A DNA stretch of 60,726 bases from an uncultured Candidatus Poseidoniales archaeon (GTDB lineage: Archaea; Thermoplasmatota; Poseidoniia; Poseidoniales; Thalassarchaeaceae): contig CABXQY010000001.1 of assembly GCA_902514485.1 (NCBI GenBank), forward strand, positions 1 to 60,726, in the 5' to 3' direction. A program made the translations under genes and the position numbers. Positions 26,753-43,900 of this stretch are shown here, in pieces (the first letter of the stretch is position 1; every line of letters begins with the position of its first letter). The notes under the pieces were generated by a model. The model was not told the DNA's origin. It saw nothing but the letters and a program-made list of their open reading frames with translations, and did not search any database.

Positions 26753-27736
26753 TCATTTATTCACACTAGATGGTAAAAAGATACTTTTCCAAGATGGGCG
26801 ATTAAGCCCAATATCTTCTGTGAAATATGAACGTGCCTTAATTGAAATAAAATCAATGATTAAAACTACTACGAAGATAATAATTAGGTATGCAATTACT
26901 TTATCATATTGTAAAAATTTCAAATATAAATTAATGTAGTATCCAATTCCTCCAGCACCTACTATTCCAATCACAGTACCATGCCTGAAATTATATTCAA
27001 ACATGAAAATTACTTGAGAGATTAAATCATTTGCACATTCAGGAATAACTACCTTAAATGCTATTTCAAACCTTGTAAGGCCCATTGCTTCAGCAGCATC
27101 GAGAGGAGTTTTAGTCATACCTTCTATTGCTTCATATTGAAGTTTACCGAGATACCCGACTGTATAGACAGTCATAGCTAAGACTCCTGCTAAAGGTCCA
27201 TATCCAACTAGTATTACAAAGAATATTGCCCAAATAATACTTGGTAAACTTCTGAACGCAGCCAGTAAGAATCTAGGTAAATATGACAAAGTAGAAACTA
27301 GAAGAAAAATGATTCCACCATCGTTCCATCTCGTCAAATATTCGTAGAAAAATGATGCATAGTCCAAATTACGTGAAGCTAATATTGAAATTGGAAGGGA
27401 TATAATCGCCCCAAATACTGTTGATACAAATGCAATTTTCATTGTCTCGACCATCCCGATCCAGGCAGTTGAGCAGGTAAAATCCATGAAAGTCGGGTAA
27501 ACAGTGCATACAGGATAAGCTCGCGGTTCAAGGACACTCCAATCAGGAGGCCATAATGATTCATTAAAGAATGTCACAAGATTACCAAGTCCTTGAGATG
27601 CCCTGCCCCAGTCATTAACCATTCCATCAAAAACAACGATGCTGAATAAGAATATTAGAATAAAAATTCCAAGCCATGAGCGTAGTGGACCAAAGAAAGT
27701 ATCTAAGAACTTCCTTAAAGGATTAAAATCATTCAT
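26753..27736 (-). CDS. ABC importer permease, PhnE family
   Basis: The block EAAEAMGLTRFEIAFKVVIPE...RHGTVIGIVGAGGIGYYI matches the PhnE signature (VGAGGIG). Its start overlaps the ATPase stop by 4 nt. Confidence 0.85.
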   Translation of the reverse strand: MNDFNPLRKFLDTFFGPLRSWLGIFILIFLFSIVVFDGMVNDWGRASQGLGNLVTFFNESLWPPDWSVLEPRAYPVCTVYPTFMDFTCSTAWIGMVETMKIAFVSTVFGAIISLPISILASRNLDYASFFYEYLTRWNDGGIIFLLVSTLSYLPRFLLAAFRSLPSIIWAIFFVILVGYGPLAGVLAMTVYTVGYLGKLQYEAIEGMTKTPLDAAEAMGLTRFEIAFKVVIPECANDLISQVIFMFEYNFRHGTVIGIVGAGGIGYYINLYLKFLQYDKVIAYLIIIFVVVLIIDFISIKARSYFTEDIGLNRPSWKSIFLPSSVNK

Positions 27737-28482
27737 AATTTAACCTCCATAGCGGTAGGTTCGGTGATAAATGGATTAGCTCTTCCATCATCAATTACTA
27801 GTAACCTATCTGCCATCATTTTTGCACGTGTAATATCATGCTCTACAACAAGAAGTGCAGAATTACTAGATTTGACATATTTTGTGACCTCCTTAAGGAC
27901 CATACCAACTGTTTTTTCATCTAGTTCACTTAGGAACTCATCAGCCATTATCAGTTCAGGACATTGAGCCAATGTTCTAGCAGTAGCAACTCTTCTCTGT
28001 TGACCTCCTGAAAGCCGCCTTATTGGTTCACTAATTTTATCTTCAAGGCCCATGGAGTTAATTGCCTGAATAGCTTTTTTCTTTGCAAATGAGGACGGTA
28101 AACAAACACCAATAAAAGGTATTGGAGTATTATGACCTGCATTTGCACCTAACATTACATTATGTAATACGCTTGCATGTCTAACTAACCCCAAACTTTG
28201 TGGCACATATCCTAACTTTCCTCTTTTAGGACTGTCAGGAATAGTTTTACCACATACTTCAATACTACCTGAGATAGGACTTATCAGACCTGCAATTGTT
28301 TTCAACAAAGTCGACTTACCGACTCCAGAAGGCCCGGCAATTGCAACAATTTCTCCAGGGAATATTTCTAGATTTGGTATCTGAACTAAAGGCTTATCAT
28401 GCTTATATCCTATCGAAACATCATTTAATCGTATAATTGGTTCAATATTCTTAGGAATATTTGTCATAGACTCACCCCCCAC
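27733..28482 (-). CDS. ABC importer ATP-binding protein, PhnC family
   Basis: Walker A GPSGVGKST, signature LSGGQQRRVATAR and Walker B LIMADE are present. The likely true start is ATG 28467, preceded by GGGGGGTGAG. Confidence 0.85.
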   Translation of the reverse strand: MGGESMTNIPKNIEPIIRLNDVSIGYKHDKPLVQIPNLEIFPGEIVAIAGPSGVGKSTLLKTIAGLISPISGSIEVCGKTIPDSPKRGKLGYVPQSLGLVRHASVLHNVMLGANAGHNTPIPFIGVCLPSSFAKKKAIQAINSMGLEDKISEPIRRLSGGQQRRVATARTLAQCPELIMADEFLSELDEKTVGMVLKEVTKYVKSSNSALLVVEHDITRAKMMADRLLVIDDGRANPFITEPTAMEVKL

Positions 28483-28496
28483 ACCCGATTACTAAG

Positions 28497-28512
28497 TTTA
28501 GGCGCCCCTAAT
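28497..28512. promoter_or_regulatory. Palindromic operator-like site TTTAGG-cgcc-CCTAAt (copy D, one mismatch)
   Basis: Located between the stop of the bilobal binding-protein gene (28570) and the ATPase start (28467/28482). Confidence 0.55.
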
Positions 28513-28569
28513 TCCTATTTGGTATTGACGGAGTGGAGTGAAAACTCAAAATTTACATTCAAAAAATAA

Positions 28570-30669
28570 TTAGTTTGCAAAGATATCAGAATAATATGAA
28601 GAAATATCAGGAATAATTGCTATGAATGACGAATACTGCCCTAGATGTTCTTGAGATGTCGCTCTGGTTAATCCGGATGTACCTAATATGTTATTCATTA
28701 TCTCAGAACCACACATATTTTTCTGAGATGTTTCATCAATTACATGTACTGAAATGTCATAACAACCTGTATATACCGATCCTCGTGTACTGAAATTTTC
28801 CAAATACATCTCATAGTTAAGTGAGATTAAAGCATTCAAGACCGCTGTTCTTGTCTGTATATCCAGCAACTCAGGATTATAGATTACAGAATCGCTTGGG
28901 ATAGGGGCAATAGCAGGGAGGGAGGTATACTCTTCAATATCTAAACACCAATTCATATTTTCTGAAATAACAACATTGTCACAATACATATTAACAGTAT
29001 TTTCTTCTAAAAATACAATATCTCCTCCGCCCTCAGAAAGACATCTTAGTGCTCCTGAATCGCCAAAATACGTATCATTTTGATTAGGTATTGATGAATT
29101 ATAATTGAAGAAAGAATAAATTATTTCTGATAAATAATCTATATCATTACTTTGATTTAATTCGAGATAATTATTTTTCGCTAAATAACTGATTGGAAGC
29201 ATCATACTTTCCACATCTGAAGAATCAGAATGGCAGGATGTTTTTCCTTCCAACAAATCAAAAGGATTAGTCAAAGGATCATTGTCTAAATGACTTATTG
29301 CGATTGAACTATTCGAATTAACCCAAGCTAAAGTATCGGAATATGTTCTACTATCTTCCATTTCTACTGCCGCCATTACTGCCAATTCATATTGTTTCCA
29401 TCCAACCCATGCCAACTCAGAATTAACAATTGCAATATCGGCATGACCATCTCTTAAACTGTTAAGTAATTCGTTTTGAGAATTAACAAAAAATATTTCC
29501 ACATCTATTTTTAATTTCTGAGATAGAAAATCGGCTAAGAGTTCCGGATTTTTATCTACATCATCAGATAATTTACCTAAATCATAAGCAATCTTAATTT
29601 GATTAATATCTGGGGAAACAGAAGTATTCAAGGAGAACTTATCGTTATAATAAGCAGAGATACCCGGTATATTGGAAATTAATGATGAATAACTACCCAA
29701 GTGTACTGAAGTGTTTGTTGCAATGAATCCAGGCGTATTAAGGATATTCTCGAGAATATTAGTCGCTTCGGGATCACTGCTCATTTCAACTAAAATATTT
29801 GTAACTTTACTTGTAATTTCTGAATCTAAAAAATTAGGGTTATACATTACTGGATGGCTAGGTGATTGCCCAAAAGCGGGTAATGCAATATACTCCTCAA
29901 TGTCAAGACACCATTCTTGATTGAGAGAAGAAATTTCATTATTACAAAGAATTTCTACGCTATTTTCTTCTAAAAAGGCAACATCTCCTTTTCCTTCCGA
30001 TAAACATTTCAAAGCACCCGAATAACCATAATATGGAGTTCCAGTGTCTGGAATTGAAGAATTTGGATTAAAAAATCCATGTATAGTATTTCTTATGGTC
30101 TCGACATCATTAGGATCTCCTATAATATTTGCATAACCTAGACCAATTAGGTAACCCATGGGAAGAAGCATACCCACTGATTTTAGCCATCCTGTATGGC
30201 AGGATGTTTTACCAGATAAAAGTGCAAACGGATCAGAATAGGGGTTATCGTCGAGATAAGCACTAGCAACGTCACTATCTGACTTTACCCATGCATTAGC
30301 ATTGTAATATGTTCTTCCATCGACATTAAGGTCTGCAGCTAAAACTTCTAATTGATATTGTTGCCAACCAACCCATGCGGCTCCAGCATCCATTAATGCA
30401 ATATCTGCATTGCCAAACCTCAGAGCTTCCACCATAGCACCCTCCGAGTCAACGCTGAACAGAGAAACATCATAATTTAATTTCTCAGAAAGATAATCTG
30501 CAAAAATCTGAGGGTTAGAATCGATGATGTCGATATTATCTTTGATCTCATATGCAATTACTAGAGTGCCAAGACTGCCTTCTTCACTATCATTACCGAT
30601 ACAACCTGAAACATAAGTCATTATCAAGATTGAAGTAATTAGAATAGAGACTAGCTTACCATTGGCCAT
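28570..30669 (-). CDS. Bilobal (tandem two-lobe) transferrin-like substrate-binding lipoprotein
   Basis: Signal plus lipobox VSGC. Lobe 1 (about aa 35-342) carries NADIALMDAGAAW, RTYYNANAWVKSDSD, GKTSCHTGWLKSVGMLLPMGYL, YYGYSGALKCLSEGKGDVAFLEE, EWCLDIEEY and SPSHPVMY. Lobe 2 (about aa 355-699) repeats the same block order with substitutions. GGAGTG lies 7 nt upstream of the ATG. Confidence 0.75.
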   Translation of the reverse strand: MANGKLVSILITSILIMTYVSGCIGNDSEEGSLGTLVIAYEIKDNIDIIDSNPQIFADYLSEKLNYDVSLFSVDSEGAMVEALRFGNADIALMDAGAAWVGWQQYQLEVLAADLNVDGRTYYNANAWVKSDSDVASAYLDDNPYSDPFALLSGKTSCHTGWLKSVGMLLPMGYLIGLGYANIIGDPNDVETIRNTIHGFFNPNSSIPDTGTPYYGYSGALKCLSEGKGDVAFLEENSVEILCNNEISSLNQEWCLDIEEYIALPAFGQSPSHPVMYNPNFLDSEITSKVTNILVEMSSDPEATNILENILNTPGFIATNTSVHLGSYSSLISNIPGISAYYNDKFSLNTSVSPDINQIKIAYDLGKLSDDVDKNPELLADFLSQKLKIDVEIFFVNSQNELLNSLRDGHADIAIVNSELAWVGWKQYELAVMAAVEMEDSRTYSDTLAWVNSNSSIAISHLDNDPLTNPFDLLEGKTSCHSDSSDVESMMLPISYLAKNNYLELNQSNDIDYLSEIIYSFFNYNSSIPNQNDTYFGDSGALRCLSEGGGDIVFLEENTVNMYCDNVVISENMNWCLDIEEYTSLPAIAPIPSDSVIYNPELLDIQTRTAVLNALISLNYEMYLENFSTRGSVYTGCYDISVHVIDETSQKNMCGSEIMNNILGTSGLTRATSQEHLGQYSSFIAIIPDISSYYSDIFAN

Positions 30670-30970: not shown

Positions 30971-32620
30971 TTATTGGAGTGTTCCAATGTCTTCCGCAGT
31001 TATTCCTAGCATATCCCAAGCTGGTTGTAGATGTGCGCGAACAGCGGCCTGATAGTCAGTTCCTGCTACTGGTACATTACTGAAATCATAGATTCCATTA
31101 ATTCCAGTTGTTCCAAATCCATCGAAGTGTGTAAATGCCGAACACTCTGCTTCAGTCATATCTGCATCAGTTGTATGGGACACCATATTATAACATCCAG
31201 TAAACATAGTAGCGCCATAATTCACATACCAACCATAAGATTCGCATGTAGTCTGATCTACTGCTGTGTCCCATGAGTGAGATACGCTGTTGTAGCAACC
31301 GTCTTGCCCAGCAACTGTGACATAATCTTCAACCCAAATATATGATGTGCATGTAGCATTATCATCGCTTGATGTTTCATGAGATACCATGTTGTAACAT
31401 CCAGTGAAAGTAGTGGAACCCCATGAAGCATTATCATAGTAATCCCAAGACTCGCAGATTGATTGATTCCATGAACTGTTCATACCATGAGATACACTGT
31501 TGTAACAACCTGTGTAAGTTTGTTCACCATAATTCTCTAAGAACATGTATCCAAGACATGAGGTCTCGTCACTGTCTCCAGAAACTTCGTGAATATTCAT
31601 ATTGTAGCAAATATCCTCACCATCACCCATATCATAATCAGTCATGTAGATGTATCCTGCACATTCATCAGCTGCCGCACCACTAACAGTCATAGTAACA
31701 CCATTGTAACAATCGTCACCAGGTGATGGATTCGCTTCAGCAACGTATTTTTCAATTACTCTCCAGAAAGAATATCCCTCTGCTTGATGTGTTTGAGCTT
31801 TTTCTACTGTATCATCAGTATTCATCTTGTGAGCATAACGTATTGTTGCTTGTGAGTAAATAATTACTAGATTCTTTACTATATCGTCTCTTGCAGCAGT
31901 TGCTCCAGCGAGATCTTCGGCTTGTAGTGCAGCAAGGCCCTCATTCATTGCTAAAAGAATTGCTGCATTTGCTATAGCAGTACCATCTGCATTTGCAGTA
32001 GCATAGTTACCTGCTCTCTTGTCTCCAGTAGCATACGGAGAGCATGAAGCATACTCATCTAGACCGTGATAAAACGCCCATCCTTCATCCCATGCGTGTT
32101 GTGCATCATCGGTGCCAAAGTTTCCAGCTTCTGCCTTGTTTATGGCTGCATTTAATTCATGAATTGCATATGCAACCATTATCTGATTTTGGACGCCTTT
32201 CTCAACAGCTTGCTCTCGAACACTATCTGAAGTTCCTTCAAAAATACCAGTTCCATCCAGTGCTGACATCAAGTAGTCATCTAAAGGTGAATCAGTACCG
32301 TAGAAGGTATCTAATCCATGTTGCTTACCAGTAGCATCTGCAAATCCTTGCAATGTTCTGTATGAACCATCGCTCTTTTCTGCATGCTTACCATTCATGT
32401 AAATATCTTTTACCCCATCCCAATCATGCTCTTCCGCTAGATCTTTGATATCACAAACATCTTCAACTAACATTCTATGATTATCAACATTTGAGGCGTA
32501 TTCATATCCGCCGTCTATTTCGTCAAAGTTATTATCAGTATCATCCGATAAACAGCCAGCAAAAGCTGCGGCTAACATACTTAATGTCATCATTATAGCA
32601 ATTATTTTATCATTTTTCAT
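30971..32620 (-). CDS. Secreted lipoprotein: unknown helical N-domain plus six tandem CYN.VSH...C modules
   Basis: Signal plus lipobox FAGC. GGAG lies upstream of the ATG. aa 304-496 contain six modules of about 30 aa, each with two Cys. Confidence 0.6.
   Translation of the reverse strand: MKNDKIIAIMMTLSMLAAAFAGCLSDDTDNNFDEIDGGYEYASNVDNHRMLVEDVCDIKDLAEEHDWDGVKDIYMNGKHAEKSDGSYRTLQGFADATGKQHGLDTFYGTDSPLDDYLMSALDGTGIFEGTSDSVREQAVEKGVQNQIMVAYAIHELNAAINKAEAGNFGTDDAQHAWDEGWAFYHGLDEYASCSPYATGDKRAGNYATANADGTAIANAAILLAMNEGLAALQAEDLAGATAARDDIVKNLVIIYSQATIRYAHKMNTDDTVEKAQTHQAEGYSFWRVIEKYVAEANPSPGDDCYNGVTMTVSGAAADECAGYIYMTDYDMGDGEDICYNMNIHEVSGDSDETSCLGYMFLENYGEQTYTGCYNSVSHGMNSSWNQSICESWDYYDNASWGSTTFTGCYNMVSHETSSDDNATCTSYIWVEDYVTVAGQDGCYNSVSHSWDTAVDQTTCESYGWYVNYGATMFTGCYNMVSHTTDADMTEAECSAFTHFDGFGTTGINGIYDFSNVPVAGTDYQAAVRAHLQPAWDMLGITAEDIGTLQ
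31133..31711 (-). repeat. Coding repeat: six modules of the form C-Y-N-x-[VNM]-[STI]-[HM]-x8-11-C-x-[SGA]-[YWF]
   Basis: The modules are CYNGVTMTVSGAAADECAGY, CYNMNIHEVSGDSDETSCLGY, CYNSVSHGMNSSWNQSICESW, CYNMVSHETSSDDNATCTSY, CYNSVSHSWDTAVDQTTCESY and CYNMVSHTTDADMTEAECSAF. Confidence 0.8.
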
Positions 32621-32746: not shown

Positions 32747-34765
32747 GTGAGTATACCTTCTCGATATATTGTGAGTTATTCTGGACGAACGAAAATTTTG
32801 ACGGCAATCTGCGTTATTCTTATGTTTTCGATGTTTTTCCCTCTGGAAAATGAAGATAAAGTACTAGATACAGAGATAATAACTAAAAATCAACTGGGCG
32901 GCGGTGGAGGAAGTATAGAAGATAGATGCAGTTCTATTACTTTCGAAGATATTCTGCCTTATACTCATGCACATTTCGATATTGTGGTCAATGATGACTG
33001 GGATTCTGCAGAGGTAGAAGCGAGAGCATGGATAAATGGTAGCAGTGTTGATTTGTTAAGAGAAAAACTCGACTCATATTTGGAAGAACTATATCCGAGC
33101 GGAGGAGATGGTTGGATCTCAACTGATGAAAAATCTGCTGTTGAGGCAGTTGCTTCAGAATGCATAGAATATGCAATGACTCGAATAGGATTGAGAGAGT
33201 CTTCCCCTCACAGAGGGGGCGTGGGATTAGATTGGAAGAATGCTACTTGGCAAGATAATGGCGTTATAATAGAAGAGTGGAATTTAGTCCCTTCTAATCA
33301 TGCAGATATAAGGGATTGTACTGCTATAGGATCTAGTAATGATTGTGAAGAAGTTCCTGTTTATCCCAATTCAGAAAGAGATTGTAATACCTTGGTTGAA
33401 ACTTCTGAGGGAGTAGATGAATGCAGACTTGAACTATGGATGAATGCTACGATGGTAATACCCAATATGGCCCAAGGAGAGGAGTTTACTCTCGCATTTA
33501 ATGCATCTAATATGACCAATGCAGTTCTAGACTTTACATTCCCTAGTAATCCTGATTTAAGATTAGATATGTGGGAAGAATGCGAAGGAAGAGATGTTGA
33601 ATTCGAGCCTATGACTCATGAAGATGCGCCGTTGAGAGGAACATGTGTCGGAGATGGCTCATCCACATATACATTTGAAAATAATGAAGATATCAAGTAT
33701 ATTCTATCCCCACATCGAAGTAGAGATGTTTGGCCTAGTGGAGAGGATATTTTTGCAGATTTTACAATTGCGCCGATACCTATTGACGAACCACCGGTTT
33801 GGACAGAAAATGCACCACTTGATGAATCATGGTTTCCTTCTCTAGAAAGTGGGGAAATAGTATGGGCAGAATGGGATAGCGTTTCTTCATGGTTTGTCGA
33901 TGAAAAACCACTTACTCAATTAGAGGTTAATTGTGAAGCTGATGAATCAGCAAATATATTCCAACGATCGGATAAATCATTCTCAGGAATTATACCAAGC
34001 GATGGAGTCGTAAGTGTTACTTGTGAAGCAATTGATGTCGCAGGACAGAGTTCAGGAAATAGAACTTGGCACCTTGGAATCCCAATTTCTGTATCGACGA
34101 CATCTAATATTCTCCAAAGTCCACACCCGATAAAGATTGAATTGAATCAAGGATGGCCGGAATTAAGTATAGACTATAGTTTCACACAAACTCAAAATAT
34201 TAATTTAGCTACAATTGATACAGTTACGATAATATCAGAAACGACATTAATGGTTGAATCAATGGGAATGAATCCAGGATTGGTTGATCTTTGGGTTGGA
34301 GTTTACGGAGAAAATGTATATCCCGTTGACAAGATATTTAGTCTAAATATAATTAAAGAGAGTTCACCACCTCTGATTTCTGTTTCCGAATATGGATGGG
34401 AATTAGATACTTGGAAGGCACAGGGTCAATTTAGTGACCCAGATGGAGAAGAAGTCGTATTTTCATTATCCATAGATAATATATCAGCAGGTAGTATATC
34501 TGTTTCGGGAGATTCTTGGAGTACTCCGATAATAAATTTCGGATTATGGGATGAAGGAATCCACGAAGTAAAAGTTATTGGTTGCGATATTTCATTGAAA
34601 TGTAACGAGGTTATTATGATGGTAAATAATTCTCATTTATTCAATACAATTGCTCCTCTTCCCGTCGAAAATCCTAAGGAAACTGGTTTTTTGCCCGGGC
34701 CGAGTATTGTTTTAACTATTTTAGCTCTAACTGTCGGTCTCATATACTCGACCCGACGCGAATGA
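32747..34765 (+). CDS. Large secreted surface protein with a C-terminal membrane anchor; function unknown
   Basis: GTG start and N-terminal signal anchor. The protein is acidic, has many N-x-S/T sequons and includes a HYR-like stretch (VSVTCEAIDVAGQSS). The C-terminus is GFLPGPSIVLTILALTVGLIYSTRRE. Confidence 0.55.
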   Translation: MSIPSRYIVSYSGRTKILTAICVILMFSMFFPLENEDKVLDTEIITKNQLGGGGGSIEDRCSSITFEDILPYTHAHFDIVVNDDWDSAEVEARAWINGSSVDLLREKLDSYLEELYPSGGDGWISTDEKSAVEAVASECIEYAMTRIGLRESSPHRGGVGLDWKNATWQDNGVIIEEWNLVPSNHADIRDCTAIGSSNDCEEVPVYPNSERDCNTLVETSEGVDECRLELWMNATMVIPNMAQGEEFTLAFNASNMTNAVLDFTFPSNPDLRLDMWEECEGRDVEFEPMTHEDAPLRGTCVGDGSSTYTFENNEDIKYILSPHRSRDVWPSGEDIFADFTIAPIPIDEPPVWTENAPLDESWFPSLESGEIVWAEWDSVSSWFVDEKPLTQLEVNCEADESANIFQRSDKSFSGIIPSDGVVSVTCEAIDVAGQSSGNRTWHLGIPISVSTTSNILQSPHPIKIELNQGWPELSIDYSFTQTQNINLATIDTVTIISETTLMVESMGMNPGLVDLWVGVYGENVYPVDKIFSLNIIKESSPPLISVSEYGWELDTWKAQGQFSDPDGEEVVFSLSIDNISAGSISVSGDSWSTPIINFGLWDEGIHEVKVIGCDISLKCNEVIMMVNNSHLFNTIAPLPVENPKETGFLPGPSIVLTILALTVGLIYSTRRE

Positions 34766-34768
34766 ATC

Positions 34769-35587
34769 ATGAGTTTCTCCGGGAGTGTCAGCCAACCATC
34801 TCATGAAGGAGGTTTGTTGGTATCTTTCGAAGGTAGGGCTCCGGGACTATATACAGGAATAAGAATTGTAGGTGGAAAATTCTTAGGAAGAGTCGATTCA
34901 GTAATTGGATCAGTAAATGGTGCATTCATTCATATCAAACCACTGGCAGAAGGCGTAGTAGCAGAAAATGCATTAGGTTCGCCTGTTGAGATTGCACCAA
35001 GAGATCGAAGACCACGTGATGATAGAAAGAGAAATAATAGAGGAAGAGACAATAATCGTGGTGGAAATGATAGACGAAGTTTCGATAGAGATATTCATAT
35101 GAAACCAGGGGATTGGCGTTGTCCAAAATGTAAAAATCATAACTATGCCAATAAACAATTCTGTAATCGTTCAACTTGTAACGAAAAGAAACCAAGTGGA
35201 AGTAATAATTCTTATCAGAGAAGAGGCAATGACCGTGGAAGAAACAATAACCGTGGAAGAGACAATAACCGTGGAAGACATAATACTGATGATTCTAACA
35301 TTAAACCAGGTGACTGGATATGCCCGAAATGTAAAAATCATAATTATGCAAGTAAAAATTTCTGTAACCGCTCAAGTTGTGATATGAGAAAACCAGGGGG
35401 GCCAACAAGTTCCAAAGGTAGTAGAAATACACCGGCTAGGGCGAGAAGACCTGATAGAAAATCTACTGAAAAACGAGGGAATAGTAATTCATCACGTAGG
35501 CAAACAAGTCGGCAAAGTTCATCGGGTTCTGGAAAAAGAAGAAGAGACAATAACAGAAGCGGAAAAAAGTTCAATTCAAGAAGATAA
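34769..35587 (+). CDS. gar1: Gar1-like (H/ACA RNP) domain fused to Arg/Asn/Gly-rich repeats and two RanBP2-type zinc fingers
   Basis: The N-terminal GLLVSFEGRAPGLYTGIRIVGGKFLGRVDSVIGSVNGAFIHIKP parallels archaeal Gar1 (GFLIVRT..VPSLNDRVVD...VGIVKDVFGPVKMPYVAIKP). The fingers are GDWRCPKCKNHNYANKQFCNRSTC (nt 35108-35179) and GDWICPKCKNHNYASKNFCNRSSC (nt 35309-35380). Confidence 0.7.
   Translation: MSFSGSVSQPSHEGGLLVSFEGRAPGLYTGIRIVGGKFLGRVDSVIGSVNGAFIHIKPLAEGVVAENALGSPVEIAPRDRRPRDDRKRNNRGRDNNRGGNDRRSFDRDIHMKPGDWRCPKCKNHNYANKQFCNRSTCNEKKPSGSNNSYQRRGNDRGRNNNRGRDNNRGRHNTDDSNIKPGDWICPKCKNHNYASKNFCNRSSCDMRKPGGPTSSKGSRNTPARARRPDRKSTEKRGNSNSSRRQTSRQSSSGSGKRRRDNNRSGKKFNSRR
35233..35286 (+). repeat. 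3 x 18-nt tandem coding repeat (ccgtggaagaNacaataa) encoding RGRNNN-RGRDNN-RGRHNT
   Basis: Read directly: ccgtggaagaaacaataa / ccgtggaagagacaataa / ccgtggaagacataatac. A related copy lies at about 35040-35070. Confidence 0.85.
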
Positions 35588-35607: not shown

Positions 35608-36648
35608 TTGTACCCGAGGTTTAATTTCTTAGAACTAATACCGATGTTTATGGCGAAGGACTCAGAAACGATTTGGCTCGACGCTTTAGATTCAAGAAAA
35701 AGAGGAGATATTGATTCTGCAATAGAACTTGCTAAAGATGTAGTTCATGTGAATGAAGAACATGCTGATGCTTGGATGGGAATAGCAACCTGGTCTCTAC
35801 CCCCTCCATCTAGAGGAAAACAAATACAACCAACTCTCAAACAATCTGCCAAAGCAATGGCTGCTTTAAGGAAGGTTGTACAATATGATTCGAAAAATAT
35901 TGAAGCATGGAAAATCGGTGGCTGGATATTAGTAGATAACTTAGGTATGCTTGAAGATGCCCTTCAGTGGTGGGAAGAATACAGGTATGAATTCCCGAAA
36001 GATGTCACTCCAGTCATAGAACAAATTTCAATATTAGTTAGATTCGGACTATACGAAGAATGTGGCGAAAAAATATCAGAATTATTCAGCGGAAATTTAG
36101 ATACTCTTTCTAGTCAGCAGGCTGTAAGAATTGATGGGGTTAAGAGAATGGTTGAAAGAGCCGCCAATATGGAAAAGGAAGAAATTTTCAAGCCTCAAGA
36201 TTCTACACATCCACGATGGGAAGTAATTGAAAAAATGAAAAAAGTTAAGCCATTAAGTTCAACATTCTGGTTAATTGCTTTCATAGCCCCCGTTGTTTTT
36301 ATTTTTGGTAGCATATCTATGACATTTTTAGGAGGAAGTATACCTGGTTTCATACTTGTTTTTCTAATGATACTCGGAGCTTTTGGTTTCCTGACAAGGG
36401 CTTCGATGGGACTCTTACAAAGAAGGAACCGTCATGCATTAGATGTAGATAGGGCCATTGATTATGAAACCTCATCTGGGAAAATATGTATTCCTGAATC
36501 AATAAGGGGAAGCATTGTTTATAATTCAATGATTAAAAATCGCAGTCCTGCAATTAAGGAAAGACTAGATCTTCTAATTAAAGCAGATGAAAAGATAAGT
36601 TCTAAGTTCATACTAAAAATCCCTACTTGGGATTTAGAGGAAGAGTAG
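35608..36648 (+). CDS. TPR-like N-terminal domain plus two-TM membrane protein; function unknown
   Basis: The helical N-domain has a TPR-like pattern (AIELAKDVVHVNEEHADAWMGIA; NIEAWKIGGWILVD). Two adjacent hydrophobic helices sit at about aa 220-265. The likely start is an internal Met (MFMAKD). Confidence 0.45.
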   Translation: MYPRFNFLELIPMFMAKDSETIWLDALDSRKRGDIDSAIELAKDVVHVNEEHADAWMGIATWSLPPPSRGKQIQPTLKQSAKAMAALRKVVQYDSKNIEAWKIGGWILVDNLGMLEDALQWWEEYRYEFPKDVTPVIEQISILVRFGLYEECGEKISELFSGNLDTLSSQQAVRIDGVKRMVERAANMEKEEIFKPQDSTHPRWEVIEKMKKVKPLSSTFWLIAFIAPVVFIFGSISMTFLGGSIPGFILVFLMILGAFGFLTRASMGLLQRRNRHALDVDRAIDYETSSGKICIPESIRGSIVYNSMIKNRSPAIKERLDLLIKADEKISSKFILKIPTWDLEEE

Positions 36649-37990: not shown

Positions 37991-40900
37991 TTAATTTCCG
38001 CCTTTTTGTTGGGCATAGTAAGATGCATAGTATTGCTCAGCATACTGCCTAGCTGTTTGCTCATCATAACCGGATGCAACCATCTGTTGGACATAAGCTT
38101 CCACTGGATCCATCTGCTCGACACCACCAAACTGCTCTACTGCATCGTCATCACTATCTTTACCACCTCTGCCTCGGGCTACAAGAGTGACTCCAACTAT
38201 AGCTAGAATAGCAATTAAACCACCTATTCCTATGAAAAGCGGATTAATACCACCCGATTCAGAGCCACCACATCCTGAAGATGTAGGGTCAAGAACGCAA
38301 GCATCCTTAGGCAGTAAATTGATTACAATTTCTTCAGTCAATACATATCTACTCCCATCTCCCTCAGTTATTCTGAAGTAAAGAGTTGCACTTACACCAC
38401 TAATTGAATAAAGTTCAGATATGTCTAAAGTCATTGAGAAACCATCTCCATCACCTAAATTACTAGATACATTGTATTTACCTATTGACTTTTGAGTGAT
38501 TTTCTGAGTAGGAGTGTAATCCAAGATTAATGGATCTAACGATACCTCTATCATTACATCACTATTTTCAGCACCACCAACGATATTACCTACAATTGTC
38601 ACATCATCAGAGGATTGTGAGTCACTAGGTCTTGGCGAAGTGAAAGACCATACTGGTTGAGCATCGCCATCATCTTCTCCAACTATTATGAAATACATAC
38701 GATATTTGTTTTGAGTTTGCTTACCTGCTTTATCATAAACAATTAACTCGACTCTTACGTCTTTCTCAATTGTTGCACTTGTAGTGATATTTCGGAAAGT
38801 ATAACTCCACTCATCGGTTACTGCTGCAGGATTTTGCCAAACGTGTTGTTCGTCATTGAATTCACCAACTGGCATATCATTAATCACTCTCCATTCATAC
38901 AGAGCTATTCCTGATTCTCCTTCAGGTGCATCAGGATCAGTACTATTCTCACCTGTAAATTGAATTGTTGTCTCTCCCGTCTCAGATAGTCTCACTCTGT
39001 AAACCGGCCAATCAACTCCTGCGATTGGTTTAGTACCTGCAGGAGTGATATATTCAGAAGTCAAATCATCATGGATAATAGTTGCAGCAGAAATTGGGTA
39101 GAAATCATCTGCAAGTGTATCATTAGTGATTAGGCGAATATAAGTAATTCTAGTATGACCTGCGTCATCATGGAGGTAAAGTGTCAATAACCACTCTGCA
39201 CCAATTCGACAAGGTTCATCTACGCCCGCTGCACAAAATGACCCCATAGTTGGTATCGAAGGACTCAACTGATTAGTGTGACTTACCAAACCGGACTCAA
39301 GTACAGCTCCGTCCCAACCAGTGACTGAATCATTGTTACCTGATTCTAAATCCCAGTCTGCAGTTAGGCCAGGGATAGTTGATACATAATTGAATTCTAA
39401 ATCTGCATTGCTCTTAATATATTTATCACGATATGCAGCGGTAGTCGGATTGATATCAACGGATTCACCGTTAATTATCAGATCGAAATCTGTACCTGCA
39501 ATACCGAAGTCAATAGGATATGGAGTTAAGTGATAAGAAAGCATATTGGAAAGTAGAGGTATATTCTCCCCACCATAGGATTCAGAAACACTAGGGTTCT
39601 CTACATCAATAGTCGTAACAATTAATCCACCTGCACCTTTATTGCAAAGAGACATTAGAGAATGCCCTTGATCAGTATCTCTGAGTAATGTGTGGAAAGT
39701 CCCTCCAGTAACACTAATTCGACCACCACATGTGGCAGGTATCTGATTAGTTTGGACTTGGGATGCAACATCTATTCCAGCTGTTGCAACATAATTACCT
39801 GCATGAATTCCAGAAAATGTTACTTTATCAATACCTAACAGTATAGGATGATATGGGTCATCAATCGAGAGATCATCATAATTAATTCTGTTATCAGTTG
39901 AGAAATTATACTGATTTCTATCTTTTATTGCCATATCGAAAATTAATCTACCTGGGTCATATTCATTCTGATATGGACCCAAATGCATCTGTACAGTACC
40001 TCCATTGACCATGAAATTTTCTAGAACATCAACAACACTCAGACCATCGGTATCTCTAGTTGTATCCATTATTTCATAATAATCGCCATAAACGACGTTA
40101 TAATCAGTCTGCCAAGGTAGTAATACCTTATTGTAATGTTCAATCCAATCAGGTGTTGCGTATGTATTCCAGTCATCTACTCTTAATTGAGTGTAGGTCA
40201 TTTCCATAGCTTCAAGATCTTTCTTCACTTGCTGAAGTCGATTCTGATCAGTAGGATTAGACAATATTGCTACATCTACCTGATCATAGAACTCTATTTC
40301 AAAGAATCTCTCATTGCCTGAACTATTACCATCATCGGTGAAAGTTGCAAAGAAACTAATATTGTATTTATGTTCATCATACCAATTAGAATAAGGCGCC
40401 GTCCAATTAGCCCATGACCTCTCATGAGGGACTAAATCAAATGGCCCATTGTCCGAATTCTCCTCATAGACTGTTTGCCCCGTTTCTAAATCCACAATTC
40501 TCATAGTCAATTGATATTCTGCTTCAATAACTCCGTTCAATAATGGTAATACAAAGTCATGTGATGACGCACCATAAGCACCTTGCTGGTCCTTATTTGT
40601 GGTGTAAACACATGCATAAGTTATATCTGTAGTACAGTCCAAAATGTCAGGTTGCATCAAAGTGATATCAGCACTAGCAATACTAAACATTATTGTAGTA
40701 AAGTTATTTGCTAAGTTGACTTCATCTTCATTATACCACTTATCTAGAGGGTCAGTATTATCAAAAATTGTCTTTACATCAATTCGATAAATTCCACTCT
40801 GGAAATCATGATTTGCCACGTTTATTAATTGTCTCTCGGAGGCATCCATACCATTGACATCTACGGTGTAAGTGCCATCATCTTCGAAAGTAAATTCCTC

Positions 40901-43900
40901 AATTCGGATATTATCTATAGCGAATCCAGCGGACCCGGCATTTCCATTTACGCCATCGTCATTTGATAAAAATCTCCATGTCAAGGTAACATCAGATCCT
41001 GAAAGTGAAGTACATTCATCCTGCCATTCAAAGGTACTATCGCTGGTTTGATTTTGCAAGAATATATTTGACATGTCAACTGTAACTGACTTGACAATTT
41101 GCTCAGAGTCATACCAAACAACTGAATTATATTTATCAGAGAAGTCCCCGAAATACTCTACTTCGTCATATCCGTTATTATCGAAATCTTCACAAGAATC
41201 AAAAGGACGTGGCCCGTTCTCATTAAGGTCGGTCCAACTACCAAATATTATACCATTGAAATTTTCTCCATTCTTTGTCCATGAAACTTCCAATTGCGCG
41301 GCATCCCTGATTGCGAGAATATTGCCATCACTATCTTTCAGGTAGTCCCCCTCAGCATAATAATCGAATGTCAAATATGTGAAATCAGCTCCATCCGCTC
41401 CAACTGGTATATCTTCAATAGTCAGAGTCTCATTCCAATTATCACCATAACCAGTATCTGGATGGCCTAACCAATATGCATGATTATTGAAAACTCCTTG
41501 ATTTTGAGGAAGCATGCCATTAGATCCACTTGAGTCATCAATACGACTTCCATTTTCATTACCATCGTCAGTCCAGATTTGATCCGCAGAATTACCAAAA
41601 GAGAAATCTTCTATAGCAACTAAATCAGGAAGTGCATTGCGTACTCTTGCCTCAAGTTGGAAATCTGTTACTGTATTACCATAATTCTGAACCTTGACAT
41701 TAATATCTCTAGTCCCTGATGCATATCTAACGCCATTTTCTAGATCTACCCAAGGTTCTTCAGCCACACCTGGGTCGTAAAGATTGTCGACATTTAACTG
41801 GAATTTCACTTCATCATTTGTTGCATCAGCATTTAGGAAACCGGAAGGATTTTCGAGAGTTGTAGAAATATAGTAGGTCTTGTTATCTACGAAATCGGAG
41901 GTTAATGAAACATCACGTGAAGCACCAGCGCCGAGATTTGTAAATGAGATTTCTTGACTTACTACTTCTTCAGTTCCGAAAGTAACATCTCTCTTCCTGA
42001 TAGAAATATTATCAAATGCAAAACCATCCAAACCTGTATCATAAGATGCACCTTCTGGTCCAACTGAACCTACTAGTCCACTTCTAAATCTAAATCTTAT
42101 ATCGATTACTTGACCAGCATAAGGAGTCAAATCAATTGAATCGATCTTCTCTTGATCGGGAGATTCTGAGCCCTCCTCTGTGAAATTTAGCCAACCGGTT
42201 ATGGTCTCACTAGAAATATCACCATTGTAAGTATTGTATTCCGGATCTACACCCTGATACAGAAGACGGAAATAGCGATCATTATCCCACCCTCCAGCAA
42301 AGAACACTTGTTCCCAACCACTTCCATCACTCCATACTTCAACACTGCATGAATCTTCATACAACCAACGTTCAACAACATCAAACTGTTCGGCAAGATA
42401 TAGTTGGAAGAAAGAAGCACTGCACATTGCCCACATGTCAAGGTAAGCAGCATCAGAACCTGTCAAGTCTACATTTTGAAGAATTACTGCTTCGTCTTGA
42501 TGGTTATAATATCCAGAATCTGATTCGTTCTGACCTCCCTCATAATCGAGTCCAGCCCAATAATAGTTTGTAGGGTTAGAGTCTGCTTCCCATGCTGATG
42601 CATTTTGATTTACAGTTGAACCAGTTTCTACATGCCAAGATGAGTCTCCTTCATCAAATTCTCCCGTATAAGAGAATTTTTCCCAAGCACACGAGTTACA
42701 ACCAGATGTATCTTCATTACCATCAAAATCATTAGCATATACTATTGTATCTACACCACCTAATACTTCTTTCACTTCTAGGTCAACATCTACACTTCCT
42801 GAAATTGGATTTAATCCTGTATTTTTAATTGTGACATTGACATATCTGTTTCCTTCACCAAGTTGAGCGGCTCCAGTTGCAGGATTATATGAAGCAGGAG
42901 CTACAGAAACATCTGTGATACCTACATCTTCATTGTCAAGAGATAATACTGAGAGGAAATCGCCTGCACCAGGCCAACCCTGAGTATCTAGCCACATCGC
43001 ATTATTAGCAAATCTGTAAGCGTAATCACGTTGCCCTATCACAATTTCGAATGCACTGTCTTCACCACCTTGTAATTGCCCCGGGTGCGCCATAGTAGGC
43101 CTTCTTCCAACATCAAAAGAAAGCCCTGGAAGATAGCCATTACCATTAGGATTACCAAGAAGTATCTCCACTGAATTGATTTCTCTCAAATTATCAAGAA
43201 GGAGGAAGGTCTGATTCTGAGAAGTAGAATCTTGAATTCTTGTTAAGGTTAACTCAGTAGGAATAAAGAAATCATATATTCCGTCTTGATTAATATCTTC
43301 AATTGTGATAGATGCACCTTTGAAATCACCTAGGTAGGCGTAATTTTGAGTAGTCCAAGAGGAACCGGACCCATAGGCATATGACACATTACCGGTCAAA
43401 CCATCGATAGCTGCAATCAGATCAATCTCTCCATTGTTATCGGTATCCTTGATATCTATCCCATACAGTGGTTCATTGTGCTCAGCATCTAATTTGAACT
43501 CATGAACTCCTTGAGCACCGGGAGTTAATGGATTTGGGTATTGCCCCTGAAGGCAATCATATTCTAGGACAGTCATATTGTCATAATGCCCTACTGAAGT
43601 CCCCACTCCTGTATTATATGGAGGGGTTCTAAGTAACCAAATATCAAGATCTTCACAATCACCAATACCACCGCCACCGGGGAATCCCCCGCCAGTTACG
43701 GTTTCACCATAATGGCCAAGCATCATGTCAGTGTAAAGTCCGGTTGTAAGAGGGACTGCAAGCGTTTGTTGAGCAGTTAGTAATGTTGGATCTGGTCCTT
43801 TATAGATCTGAATATATTGATTTGTAGCGGTATTATCTCTAACTACCATAACAATATCTGCATTACCATCGCCATCTATGTCGCCTACTTCCATATCAGA

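What the first reader, a model, noticed from the sequence alone, without database searches (positions are those of the whole stretch)
34769..35587. Gar1-like domain fused to Arg/Asn/Gly repeats and two RanBP2-type zinc fingers: a eukaryote-like RNA-binding architecture
Archaeal Gar1 is normally a bare beta-barrel of about 75-100 aa. Here a Gar1-like core (aa 15-75) is followed by RDRRPRDDRKRNNRGRDNNRGGNDRR. Next comes a finger, GDWRCPKCKNHNYANKQFCNRSTC, then RRGNDRGRNNNRGRDNNRGRHN, a second finger, GDWICPKCKNHNYASKNFCNRSSC, and an Arg/Ser-rich tail. The fingers fit the RanBP2/ZRANB2 pattern W-x-C-x2-C-x3-N-x6-C-N-R, with a 4-residue instead of 2-residue last spacing. That fold is overwhelmingly eukaryotic, and in ZRANB2 and FUS/EWS/TAF15 it reads single-stranded RNA. 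Eukaryotic, but not archaeal, Gar1 is flanked by Gly/Arg-rich (GAR) domains, and FUS-family proteins have RGG-ZnF-RGG. So this protein combines features otherwise known from eukaryotic snoRNP and RNA-binding proteins. The finger and the repeat are each duplicated at the DNA level, including a 3 x 18-nt tandem repeat at 35233-35286. The gene starts 4 nt after the stop of an unrelated surface protein gene.
Basis: partly seen in the sequence, partly recalled or inferred. Interest (0 to 1): 0.8.

Follow-up and report, generated by a model that had tools for sequence, protein, structure and literature searches.

The report
Archaeal Gar1 with RanBP2 zinc fingers
In a Marine Group II archaeon, Gar1 (a small subunit of the RNA-guided pseudouridine machinery) carries an arginine-rich tail with two zinc fingers of the kind FUS and ZRANB2 use to bind single-stranded RNA, and reviews say archaeal Gar1 lacks RNA-binding extensions of this sort.

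Summary
ORF 34769-35587 (+, 272 aa) has three parts.

- **Gar1 domain:** residues 1-78 form a Gar1 beta-barrel. The AF2 model has pLDDT 88.5. Its top 14 PDB matches are all Gar1 (TM up to 0.84). HHalign against canonical Gar1 gives 98.8% probability.
- **Linkers and tail:** these are Arg/Asn/Gly-rich and low-complexity.
- **Zinc fingers:** there are two RanBP2-type Cys4 fingers. Pfam scores them 36.2 bits against a cut-off of 27. A profile of the family's fingers hits ZRANB2, FUS, TAF15, RBM10 and RBM5 ahead of nucleoporin fingers.

The gene is one member of a single orthologous locus. That locus sits in the same gene neighbourhood across Poseidoniales (Marine Group II).

The C-terminal extension evolves quickly. 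Orthologs carry 0-4 fingers. The fingers have either the canonical C-x2-C spacing or the derived C-x4-C spacing seen here. Some orthologs have true RGG repeats, and one has RGG repeats only.

The most likely role is the lineage's H/ACA Gar1, with an added arm that binds single-stranded RNA, analogous to eukaryotic GAR domains.

Three things are unproven: that no second gar1 exists elsewhere in the genome, that the protein binds Cbf5, and that the fingers bind RNA. In the window's fingers the two guanine-reading arginines are replaced by Asn/Ser-Lys.

I found no publication on this fusion. I class it as a new variant of a known kind.

The parts
34769..35587 (+). Complete gene for the Gar1-ZnF protein (272 aa plus stop)
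   Evidence: ORF list and sequence. 312 homologs, the closest 97% identical. Same syntenic slot in all Poseidoniales loci examined.
34769..35002 (+). Gar1 beta-barrel domain (aa 1-78)
   Evidence: AF2 pLDDT 88.5 with six strands. Foldseek top 14 PDB hits are all Gar1; P. furiosus 2ey4_D has TM 0.84, rmsd 2.2 A, 26% identity. HHalign vs canonical Gar1: 98.8%, E 4.7e-17. A canonical-Gar1 HMM scores 44.8 bits over model positions 4-87 of 89.
35003..35101 (+). Linker 1 (aa 79-111), Arg/Asn/Asp/Gly-rich low-complexity sequence (RDRRPRDDRKRNNRGRDNNRGGNDRR...)
   Evidence: Sequence. Variable in length and composition among orthologs. Outside the fingers, family tails are 20-30% Arg.
35102..35194 (+). 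RanBP2-type zinc finger 1 (aa 112-142, KPGDWRCPKCKNHNYANKQFCNRSTCNEKKP). Ligands C118, C121, C132, C137. C-x4-C last spacing.
   Evidence: Pfam PF00641 above cut-off with 2 stretches. Invariant columns. Finger profile hits ZNF265 at 2.2e-10 and FUS at 9.8e-10.
35195..35302 (+). Linker 2 (aa 143-178), containing the NNRGRD-type repeat
   Evidence: Length differs even among 87-97% identical orthologs.
35227..35278 (+). 18-nt tandem repeat, 2.9 copies, encoding (N/D)NRGR(N/D) units
   Evidence: TRF score 90, 94% matches. Register copies at 35228, 35246 and 35264. Copy number is 3 in the window, 2 in P0001 and about 1 in P0004.
35303..35395 (+). RanBP2-type zinc finger 2 (aa 179-209, KPGDWICPKCKNHNYASKNFCNRSSCDMRKP). 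Ligands C185, C188, C199, C204.
   Evidence: Best Pfam stretch is aa 179-201. AF2 model of aa 170-214 has core pLDDT 93-94. Foldseek top hits are RanBP2-type fingers, including FUS at 43% identity and ZNF265 at 41%. 110-nt DNA repeat with finger 1.
35396..35584 (+). Arg/Ser-rich C-terminal tail (aa 210-272). It includes a conserved peptide, KGSRNTPARARRP (aa 216-228, nt 35414-35452).
   Evidence: G217, T221 and R226 are nearly invariant and R224 is invariant across 28 orthologs. Deep-branching orthologs carry a related motif, GK..GHAHNR.P.
32747..34765 (+). Upstream neighbour: a 672-aa surface or membrane-anchored protein with no Pfam match, always immediately 5' of the gar1-ZnF gene
   Evidence: No Pfam hit. 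Gene order conserved in all loci, including orthologs only 28-29% identical.
35608..36648 (+). Downstream neighbour: a 346-aa TPR-like membrane protein, a conserved part of the gene block
   Evidence: Weak TPR_19 hit. Conserved position.

Best explanation
This gene is the Poseidoniales (Marine Group II) ortholog of Gar1, the accessory subunit of the box H/ACA pseudouridylation RNP.

**Core function (inferred by homology).** The N-terminal barrel (aa 1-78) would dock on the catalytic domain of Cbf5. As in characterised archaeal RNPs, it would tune the thumb loop and so control substrate placement and product release.

**Added function (inferred).** The C-terminal 195 residues are a lineage-specific addition. 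They form a flexible Arg-rich chain carrying two RanBP2-type zinc knuckles of the class that binds single-stranded RNA. This would give the RNP an extra RNA-binding arm with low sequence specificity. The arm could capture or hold substrate rRNA, or other RNA, near the active site. That would be a functional analogue of the GAR/RGG domains flanking eukaryotic Gar1.

**How the extension evolves (shown).** It changes by tandem duplication and loss of finger-plus-linker modules and by slippage of short repeats.

**Shown versus inferred.** Shown: the domain identities, the orthologous locus, and the conservation pattern. Inferred: Cbf5 binding, RNA binding by the fingers, and any effect on pseudouridylation.
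For: **Gar1 identity**
- Foldseek's top 14 hits are all Gar1 chains from archaea, yeast, human and insect.
- The N-domain profile's top five PDB sequence hits are all Gar1.
- 21 of 24 family N-domains hit Pfam Gar1 at E<=10 (a lenient limit), best 1.5e-5.
- The profile reaches Methanothermobacter Gar1 (MTH_886) and other short Gar1 proteins at E 4.5e-6 to 1.8e-4 in 1.84 billion proteins.
- HHalign gives 98.8% probability.

**Orthology and housekeeping character**
- The gene occupies one conserved slot (surface protein, gar1-X, TPR protein, AdoHcyase, ~2100-aa protein) in every MGII locus examined. This includes orthologs at 36% identity, an RGG-only form and a 2.5-Mb contig.
- There is no other Gar1-like ORF in the window.
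- Cbf5 is a core MGII gene, while nothing is annotated as Gar1 in the held supplements of Tully 2019.

**Finger class**
- Pfam scores above its cut-off.
- The finger profile hits ZNF265, FUS, TAF15, ZRANB2, RBM10 and RBM5 (2.2e-10 to 2.2e-5) ahead of Nup153 and RanBP2.
- Among 174 distinct family fingers, D4 is present in 172, N14 in 170, an aromatic at position 17 in 174, a basic residue at position 20 in 174, and N24 in 169. These are the published RNA-contact positions.

**Analogy with GAR domains**
- Orthologs carry 14-19 RGG motifs (P0141, P0114, P0273).
- RGG domains of yeast Gar1 affect catalysis and substrate exchange.
Against: - The window's own N-domain fails Pfam Gar1 and nearly fails NCBIfam Gar1, so it is a divergent Gar1.
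- A second, canonical gar1 elsewhere in the genome cannot be excluded with these tools.
- In the window's C-x4-C fingers, positions 19-20 are N/S-K rather than the guanine-reading R-R or W/F-R. A finger with K-S at these positions (ZRANB1-B) did not bind RNA in PMC6384913, so RNA binding by this sub-type is untested.
- The window protein has only one RGG.
- The canonical Gar1 sequences used for HHalign were themselves found with the family profile, which makes that test partly circular. The PDB and structure evidence is independent of this.
- Foldseek E-values for the 45-residue finger model are individually weak (0.04-1).
Confidence: 0.68

Rival explanations
1. The protein is a Gar1/Naf1-fold paralog that has left the H/ACA RNP. 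It would work as a stand-alone RNA-binding protein or RNA chaperone, for example in ribosome biogenesis or mRNA metabolism, while a canonical gar1 elsewhere in the genome serves Cbf5.
For: The N-domain is divergent enough to miss Pfam Gar1 in the window protein. The family forms a compact, well-separated cluster of only 125 representatives. The whole genome could not be searched.
Against: The gene is a single conserved syntenic locus across the order. The nearest relatives outside the family are genuine archaeal Gar1 proteins rather than Naf1 or other barrels. Tully 2019's supplements list Cbf5 as core but nothing annotated as Gar1. Finger-less and RGG-only forms occupy the same locus, as expected if this locus is the gar1.
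Confidence: 0.17
2. The fingers are protein-binding modules, like Npl4/TAB2 NZF fingers (ubiquitin) or Nup153/Nup358 fingers (Ran). They would tether Gar1 to a protein partner, such as a ubiquitin-like SAMP, rather than binding RNA.
For: By Foldseek E-value, the best structural matches of the finger model are Nup358 and Nup153 fingers. The R19/R20 pair is missing in the window's fingers. A K-S finger did not bind RNA.
Against: At sequence-profile level the ssRNA-binding class (ZNF265, FUS, TAF15, ZRANB2, RBM10, RBM5) outranks the nucleoporin fingers by 5 or more orders of magnitude. D4, N14, the aromatic at 17 and N24 are almost invariant. The residues just after the second Cys are K/N-N, not the Thr-Phe of ubiquitin-binding NZF fingers (sequence; the NZF motif is from my own knowledge). 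The fingers are embedded in Arg-rich or RGG linkers typical of RNA binders.
Confidence: 0.12
3. The fusion is an artefact: an assembly chimera, a frameshifted read-through, or a decaying pseudogene.
For: Some database entries are truncated or frameshifted. Examples are L029 and the split 93-aa plus 59-aa gene calls on the 2.5-Mb long-read contig L033.
Against: The intact fusion occurs in 312 protein clusters and about 30 species-level genomes, including single-cell genomes. The zinc ligands and barrel residues are invariant.
Confidence: 0.01

Closest known systems
Archaeal Gar1 (e.g. Pyrococcus furiosus Gar1 in PDB 2EY4/2HVY; Methanothermobacter MTH_886; Pfam PF04410)
   Same: Same six-stranded barrel (TM 0.84, rmsd about 2.1-2.2 A, 25-26% identity). 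Same hallmark G-x-V-x(2)-V-x-G-P/S motif. It sits at the N-terminus and is followed by basic residues.
   Different: Canonical proteins are 75-105 aa with at most a short Lys/Arg tail. This one adds about 195 residues with two zinc fingers. Its barrel is divergent enough to miss Pfam's Gar1 model.
Eukaryotic Gar1 (yeast Gar1p, human GAR1) with flanking GAR/RGG domains
   Same: A Gar1 core joined to Arg/Gly-rich low-complexity RNA-binding sequence. Some Poseidoniales orthologs (P0141, P0114, P0273) have 14-19 genuine RGG motifs. Yeast, human and insect Gar1 structures also match the barrel.
   Different: Eukaryotic Gar1 has GAR domains on both sides and no zinc fingers. Here the extension is C-terminal only and carries 0-4 RanBP2 fingers. 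The window's repeats are RG/Asn-rich with a single RGG. The barrel is closer to archaeal than to eukaryotic Gar1.
ssRNA-binding RanBP2-type zinc fingers: ZRANB2/ZNF265, FUS/EWS/TAF15, RBM5/RBM10
   Same: W-x-C-x2-C-x3-N-x6-C pattern. D4, N14, aromatic 17 and N24 are conserved. Best sequence-profile hits run from 2.2e-10 to 2.2e-5. The RGG-ZnF-RGG arrangement resembles FET proteins. Deep-branching orthologs carry FR, RR, KR or WR at positions 19-20, as in RBM, ZRANB2 and FUS fingers.
   Different: The window's fingers have a two-residue insertion before the last Cys (C-x4-C). That insertion strictly co-occurs with N/S-K at positions 19-20, so GGU-type recognition is not assured. The host is an archaeon and the partner domain is Gar1.
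Naf1 (eukaryotic H/ACA assembly factor with a Gar1-like domain)
   Same: Same barrel superfamily. It appears in the Foldseek list (2v3m, 2eqn).
   Different: The match is clearly weaker (TM 0.54-0.61, 10-16% identity, E 0.09-0.4) than to Gar1 proper. Naf1 is not known in archaea (own knowledge).
Sulfolobus ArnA N-terminal RanBP2-type zinc finger
   Same: An archaeal protein with a single RanBP2-type C4 finger, which shows the fold is not exclusive to eukaryotes (PMC6509490; 8s05_C appears).
   Different: ArnA pairs the finger with an FHA domain for protein-protein regulation of motility. It has no RGG context, no Gar1 domain, and is not of the ZRANB2/FET sequence class.

Membership tests
Gar1 (PF04410, H/ACA RNP subunit) | Six-stranded beta-barrel with the Gar1 topology | tested here: met
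   AF2 pLDDT 88.5. Foldseek top 14 hits are all Gar1, with TM 0.73-0.84 and rmsd about 2.1-2.4 A for the best.
Gar1 (PF04410, H/ACA RNP subunit) | The window protein's own sequence matches the curated Gar1 models (Pfam PF04410, NCBIfam NF009629) above cut-off | tested here: not met
   No PF04410 hit for the window protein. NCBIfam NF009629 gives E 0.18, 11.9 bits, against a cut-off of 132.
Gar1 (PF04410, H/ACA RNP subunit) | Family-level (profile) sequence match to Gar1 | tested here: met
   21 of 24 orthologs hit PF04410 at E<=10 (a lenient limit), best 1.5e-5. HHalign 98.8%, E 4.7e-17. A canonical-Gar1 HMM scores 44.8 bits. The profile reaches MTH_886.
Gar1 (PF04410, H/ACA RNP subunit) | Binds the catalytic domain or thumb loop of Cbf5 | not testable with these tools
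   No complex prediction was available. The paper consulted gave no residue-level Gar1 interface data.
Gar1 (PF04410, H/ACA RNP subunit) | Is the only Gar1 homolog of the genome (orthology), with Cbf5/Nop10/L7Ae present | tested here: inconclusive
   No second Gar1-like ORF and no cbf5, nop10 or L7Ae in the 60.7-kb window. One conserved locus across the order. Cbf5 is listed as core in MGII and no Gar1 term appears in Tully 2019's supplements. Whole genomes could not be searched.
RanBP2-type zinc finger (PF00641) | Match to the curated profile above the gathering score | tested here: met
   36.2 bits vs 27, E 3.5e-9, two stretches.
RanBP2-type zinc finger (PF00641) | Consensus W-x-C-x(2,4)-C-x3-N-x6-C-x2-C | tested here: not met
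   Every element is present except the last spacing, which is C-x4-C in both window fingers. In the family, 101 distinct fingers have C-x2-C and 73 have C-x4-C, so the insertion is a derived variant.
RanBP2-type zinc finger (PF00641) | Zinc-knuckle fold with four Cys around one Zn | tested here: inconclusive
   The model core has pLDDT 93-94. The top 25 Foldseek hits are almost all RanBP2-type fingers, but with E 0.04-1.
ssRNA-binding subclass of RanBP2 fingers (ZRANB2/FET/RBM5-10) | D4, N14, stacking aromatic at 17, and N24 | tested here: met
   The window fingers have D115/D182, N123/N190, Y126/Y193 and N133/N200. These positions are near-invariant in 174 family fingers. The criteria come from PMC6384913 and PMC11789483.
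ssRNA-binding subclass of RanBP2 fingers (ZRANB2/FET/RBM5-10) | Arg at position 20, with Arg, Trp or Lys at position 19, reading the two guanines | tested here: not met
   The window fingers have N128-K129 and S195-K196. All 73 C-x4-C fingers have NK or SK. The C-x2-C fingers of orthologs have FR, RR, KR, SR or WR.
GAR/RGG domain | Clustered RGG/RG repeats in a Gly/Arg-rich segment | tested here: inconclusive
   Judged from P0001, which is 97% identical to the window protein: 1 RGG, 12 RG/GR dipeptides, and a tail outside the fingers of about 22% Arg, 12% Gly and 14% Asn. Orthologs P0114, P0141 and P0273 have 14-19 RGG and 30-40% Gly.
Ubiquitin-binding NZF fingers | Thr-Phe directly after the second Cys, plus a downstream hydrophobic residue (own knowledge of the Npl4/TAB2 motif) | tested here: not met
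   The positions after the second Cys are K-N (window) or K/N/S-N across the family.

The most novel reading that the evidence does not exclude
Poseidoniales acquired a FET/ZRANB2-like RGG-ZnF-RGG module, possibly by horizontal transfer from eukaryotic plankton. Unnamed high-GC, transcript-like contigs encode multi-finger proteins with the same NHN[YF]AS[KR] signature, and some even share the C-x4-C spacing. On this reading the lineage grafted the module onto Gar1. It would thereby have convergently built a eukaryote-style H/ACA RNP whose Gar1 tail recruits substrate RNA. Like eukaryotic GAR domains, the tail might also drive condensate-like clustering of ribosome-biogenesis factors in an archaeon.
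Probability: 0.15. Interest if true: 0.8.

Novelty: new variant of a known kind. Interest (0 to 1): 0.6.

Why it matters
Reviews of H/ACA RNPs treat RNA-binding extensions of Gar1 as a eukaryotic innovation, and the role of those GAR domains is still described as elusive.

This is an abundant, globally distributed archaeal order whose Gar1 carries an Arg-rich or RGG tail with 0-4 FUS/ZRANB2-like fingers. The orthologs form a natural series: RGG only, one to four fingers, and two finger sub-types.

That series offers a simpler archaeal system for testing what such extensions do for guide-RNA-directed pseudouridylation. It is also a clear case of a largely eukaryotic ssRNA-binding finger class being used in archaea.

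It has an annotation consequence as well. Standard models miss the Gar1 domain in many of these proteins, so Gar1 can appear absent from MGII genomes.

Tried and rejected
- **Pfam and NCBIfam on the window protein alone.** There was no usable Gar1 signal, so I moved to profiles and structure.
- **GC versus composition.** I tested whether Asn-for-Gly replacement in the linkers tracks genomic GC. The held loci span only 0.34-0.39 GC, and the correlation was weak and in the wrong direction. One RGG-rich ortholog sits in about 50% GC DNA, which is suggestive only, so I make no claim.
- **Possible paralog.** L018 and L029 come from the same MAG, but L029 is a broken copy.
- **Short family members as stand-alone Gar1 (P0133/P0285).** The P0133 locus on a 2.5-Mb contig has an RG-rich continuation in another frame. 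It is probably a long-read frameshift of a finger-less, RG-tailed ortholog.
- **Giant proteins hit by the N-domain profile.** The one scanned with Pfam (P0229) is a LapA-domain adhesin. I judged P0195 and P0204 to be the same kind from their 12-19 repeated matches, and all three to be unrelated.
- **L030.** This is an unrelated small protein with two fingers and a RING-like end.
- **Residue-level Gar1-Cbf5 interface data.** PMC4551948 contained none.
- **Gar1 copy number in MGII paper supplements.** Only Cbf5 is listed.
- **Literature on the fusion.** Searches for a paper on a Gar1 zinc-finger fusion or on Gar1 in MGII returned nothing relevant.
- **Rfam.** The window contains only two tRNAs and no H/ACA guide RNA.
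Full report
**Observation.**
Its ATG lies three nucleotides after the TGA of a 672-aa ORF at 32747-34765.

Tandem Repeats Finder reports an 18-nt unit repeated 2.9 times at 35227-35278 with 94% matches. The repeat finder reports a 110-nt direct repeat, 35090-35199 against 35291-35400 at 74% identity, which corresponds to the two fingers.

**Organism and context.**
All 30 related loci recovered from species-representative genomes come from Poseidoniales (Marine Group II) MAGs or single-cell genomes. Two contigs carry bacterial bin labels: L007 has full MGII gene order and is evidently mis-binned, while L030 is unrelated to this gene. The closest loci are 82% and 79% identical.

The rest of the window is ordinary MGII chromosome. 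It encodes aconitase, AdoHcy hydrolase, archaeal-type DHQ synthase II, ABC transporters, an NFACT protein and two tRNAs. It has no cbf5, nop10, L7Ae or H/ACA RNA.

**The N-terminal domain is Gar1.**
- The window protein alone gives no Pfam Gar1 hit and only E=0.18 against NCBIfam Gar1.
- A 24-sequence alignment of the N-domain (A1) was searched as a profile against PDB sequences. The five best hits were all Gar1 chains, at marginal E-values of 0.25-0.59.
- Of the 24 members, 21 hit Pfam Gar1 individually at E<=10 (a lenient limit), best 1.5e-5.
- An AlphaFold2 model of aa 1-85 is confident (pLDDT 88.5, pTM 0.77) and all-beta.
- Foldseek against the PDB returns Gar1 for its 14 best matches. These include P. 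furiosus 2ey4 and 2hvy (E 3.4e-4 to 8.5e-4, TM 0.84, rmsd about 2.1-2.2 A, 25-26% identity), yeast 3u28, human telomerase H/ACA lobes and insect snoRNPs. Naf1's Gar1-like domain ranks lower.
- The A1 profile was searched against 1.84 billion representative proteins and found only 125 at E<=1e-3. The tail of that list holds short canonical Gar1 proteins (E 4.5e-6 to 1.8e-4). P0240 and P0230 pass Pfam's Gar1 cut-off, and P0240 is Methanothermobacter MTH_886, annotated Gar1.
- HHalign of A1 against an alignment of these canonical proteins gives 98.8% probability, E 4.7e-17, over 74 columns.
- An HMM built from the canonical proteins scores the window ORF at 44.8 bits and nothing else in the six-frame translation of the window.
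- The canonical set was chosen through the family profile, so the last two tests are partly circular. The PDB and structure results are independent of that.

**The Cys4 segments are RanBP2-type fingers of the RNA-binding class.**
- Pfam Zn_ribbon_RanBP scores 36.2 bits against a cut-off of 27, in two stretches.
- The four Cys of each finger, the Trp, and the Asn residues are invariant across 28 aligned orthologs.
- A model of finger 2 (aa 170-214) has a core pLDDT of 93-94. Its best PDB matches are almost exclusively RanBP2-type fingers: Nup358, Nup153, RBM5, FUS at 43% identity, ZNF265 at 41%, ZRANB2 and Trabid. Their E-values are individually weak (0.04-1), as expected for about 30 residues.
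- At the sequence level the result is sharper. A profile of 44 family fingers hits ZNF265/ZRANB2 finger 1 (2.2e-10), FUS (9.8e-10), TAF15 (3.5e-9), ZRANB2 finger 2 (1.1e-8), RBM10 (1.7e-6) and RBM5 (2.2e-5). Nup153 (4.2e-5) and RanBP2 (6e-3) come after these.

**RNA-contact positions.**
Published work defines the RNA-contact positions of this class (PMC6384913 and PMC11789483):
- D4;
- N14, which contacts the third base;
- a stacking aromatic at position 17;
- R19 and R20, which read the two guanines;
- N24.

Among 174 distinct fingers in Gar1-family proteins, D4 occurs in 172, N14 in 170, an aromatic at 17 in all 174, a basic residue at 20 in all 174 (R 101, K 73), and N24 in 169.

The last Cys-Cys spacing is canonical C-x2-C in 101 fingers and C-x4-C in 73. 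The C-x4-C form strictly co-occurs with N/S-K at positions 19-20. The C-x2-C form has FR, RR, KR, SR or WR, which are the combinations found in RBM, ZRANB2 and FUS/EWS fingers.

Both window fingers belong to the derived C-x4-C/[NS]K sub-type. RNA binding is therefore well supported for the family in general. For this sub-type it is plausible but untested. A zebrafish finger with K-S at these positions did not bind RNA.

**One orthologous locus with a fast-evolving extension.**
The block of surface protein, gar1-X, TPR-like membrane protein, AdoHcy hydrolase, a roughly 2100-aa FG-GAP protein and aconitase is conserved in every locus examined. That includes:
- orthologs only 36% identical, whose neighbours are 28-42% identical;
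- an RGG-rich ortholog;
- a three-finger ZRANB2-like ortholog, a one-finger ortholog and an RGG-only ortholog;
- a 2.5-Mb contig.

Architectures range from 0 to 4 fingers. Among members of at least 150 aa the counts are 28, 24, 76, 41 and 3. The zero class is inflated by fragments and by degenerate fingers.

Outside the fingers, tails are 20-30% Arg. Gly ranges from about 5% to 40%, and RGG counts from 0 to 19. P0141 is a Gar1 barrel followed only by RGG/GYRGG repeats.

The 18-nt unit is present in 3, 2 and about 1 copies in orthologs that are 87-100% identical.

The RGG-rich ortholog lies in about 50% GC DNA, and the Asn-rich window is 38.6% GC. This is compatible with composition-driven RGG-to-RNN drift, but the held loci could not test it.

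**Mechanism.**
In archaeal H/ACA RNPs Gar1 contacts only Cbf5. It modulates the thumb loop and promotes correct substrate placement and product release (PMC8096250 introduction, PMC4551948).

In yeast, removing the RGG domains of Gar1 changes RNP dynamics, single-turnover yield and multiple-turnover rates. The authors interpret this as RGG contact with substrate RNA.

By analogy, I propose that the barrel docks on Cbf5 and that the Arg-rich linkers plus fingers act as a flexible arm for single-stranded RNA. The arm would raise the local concentration or dwell time of substrate RNA, or of other RNA.

The domain identities and the orthologous locus are shown. Cbf5 binding, zinc binding, RNA binding and any catalytic effect are inferred.

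Cbf5 is a core MGII gene, present in 136 and 78 genomes of the two groups in Tully 2019's table. No held supplement of that paper mentions Gar1. This fits the view that the divergent fusion is the lineage's Gar1 and is missed by routine annotation.

**Rivals.**
- **Paralog outside the RNP, with a canonical gar1 elsewhere.** This remains possible because whole genomes could not be searched. I give it about 0.17.
- **Protein-binding fingers (NZF-like or Ran-binding-like).** This is disfavoured by the sequence-profile ranking, by the conserved RNA-contact positions, and by the absence of the NZF Thr-Phe motif (the motif is from my own knowledge). I give it about 0.12.
- **Assembly artefact.** This is excluded by the breadth and conservation of the family.

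**Novelty.**
JGI's automatic names already pair 'rRNA processing protein Gar1' with 'predicted nucleic-acid-binding Zn-ribbon protein', and NCBI calls some members 'zinc finger protein'. The fusion is therefore latent in databases.

No paper in the searchable library discusses it. Reviews state that archaeal Gar1 lacks GAR regions.

RanBP2-type fingers have an archaeal precedent in ArnA. I found no report of the ZRANB2/FET sequence class fused to Gar1.

I class it as a new variant of a known kind, with interest of about 0.6. It would surprise H/ACA specialists and is directly testable, but it is an elaboration of a known subunit rather than a new system.

Noticed in passing
window 35414-35452 (aa 216-228): A short conserved peptide, KGSRNTPARARRP, follows the last finger (G217, T221, R224 and R226 are invariant or nearly so). 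Deep-branching orthologs carry a related C-terminal motif, GK..GHAHNR.P. It could be a docking motif; its function is unknown.
   Followed up: partly
window 32747-34765 (+) and all related loci: The gar1-ZnF gene always lies 3-50 nt downstream of a ~650-690-aa surface protein gene with no Pfam match. That protein has an N-terminal TM segment and a C-terminal 'LPGPS...TM...TRRE' anchor. The linkage is conserved across the whole order, which is an odd partner for an RNP subunit and may indicate co-transcription.
   Followed up: partly
window 35227-35278: The copy number of the 18-nt (NNRGRD) unit differs among orthologs 87-97% identical to the window protein. The window has 3 copies, P0001 has 2 and P0004 about 1. 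This indicates ongoing replication slippage inside a coding region.
   Followed up: yes
P0102, P0119 (L032) and P0117 (L031): These are multi-finger proteins (7-8 RanBP2 fingers, no Gar1 domain) on 1.5-kb single-gene contigs of 55-62% GC, possibly protist transcripts. They share the NHN[YF]AS[KR] signature, and P0102 and P0119 also share the unusual C-x4-C spacing. They may mark the source or a sink of a horizontal transfer.
   Followed up: partly
L030 7996-8448: A 150-aa protein has two RanBP2-like fingers followed by a RING-like Cys/His C-terminus, an MDM2-like arrangement. Its contig is binned as Pseudohongiella, and the neighbours do not look bacterial.
   Followed up: no
L007 (PARX01000028.1): This contig is labelled as a Rhodobacteraceae MAG but carries the complete MGII gene block, so it is mis-binned in the public assembly.
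   Followed up: yes
L029 vs L018 (MAG LRMED-428); L033 10001-10458: A broken second copy of the gene sits in one MAG. On a 2.5-Mb long-read contig the gene is called as split 93-aa and 59-aa ORFs, with an RG-rich continuation in another frame. Both are probably assembly or frameshift artefacts in the repetitive region.
   Followed up: partly
P0195, P0204, P0229: The Gar1 N-domain profile also matches 7-19 repeated stretches in giant proteins (1199-3462 aa) at E 1e-6 to 1e-12. The one scanned with Pfam (P0229) is a LapA-domain adhesin. This is probably compositional or remote beta-barrel similarity rather than homology of function.
   Followed up: partly
window 30971-32620 (-) and 26753-30669 (-): A protein of the Fea1 family (PF07692, low-iron-inducible periplasmic protein) lies next to a transferrin-like/phosphonate-binding ABC transporter. 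This is a probable iron-uptake cluster, and the same genes recur upstream of gar1 in many MGII loci.
   Followed up: no
window 37991-44494 (-): A 2167-aa ORF is conserved in the same position in all loci. Its orthologs have faint FG-GAP hits. It is probably a large surface protein.
   Followed up: no
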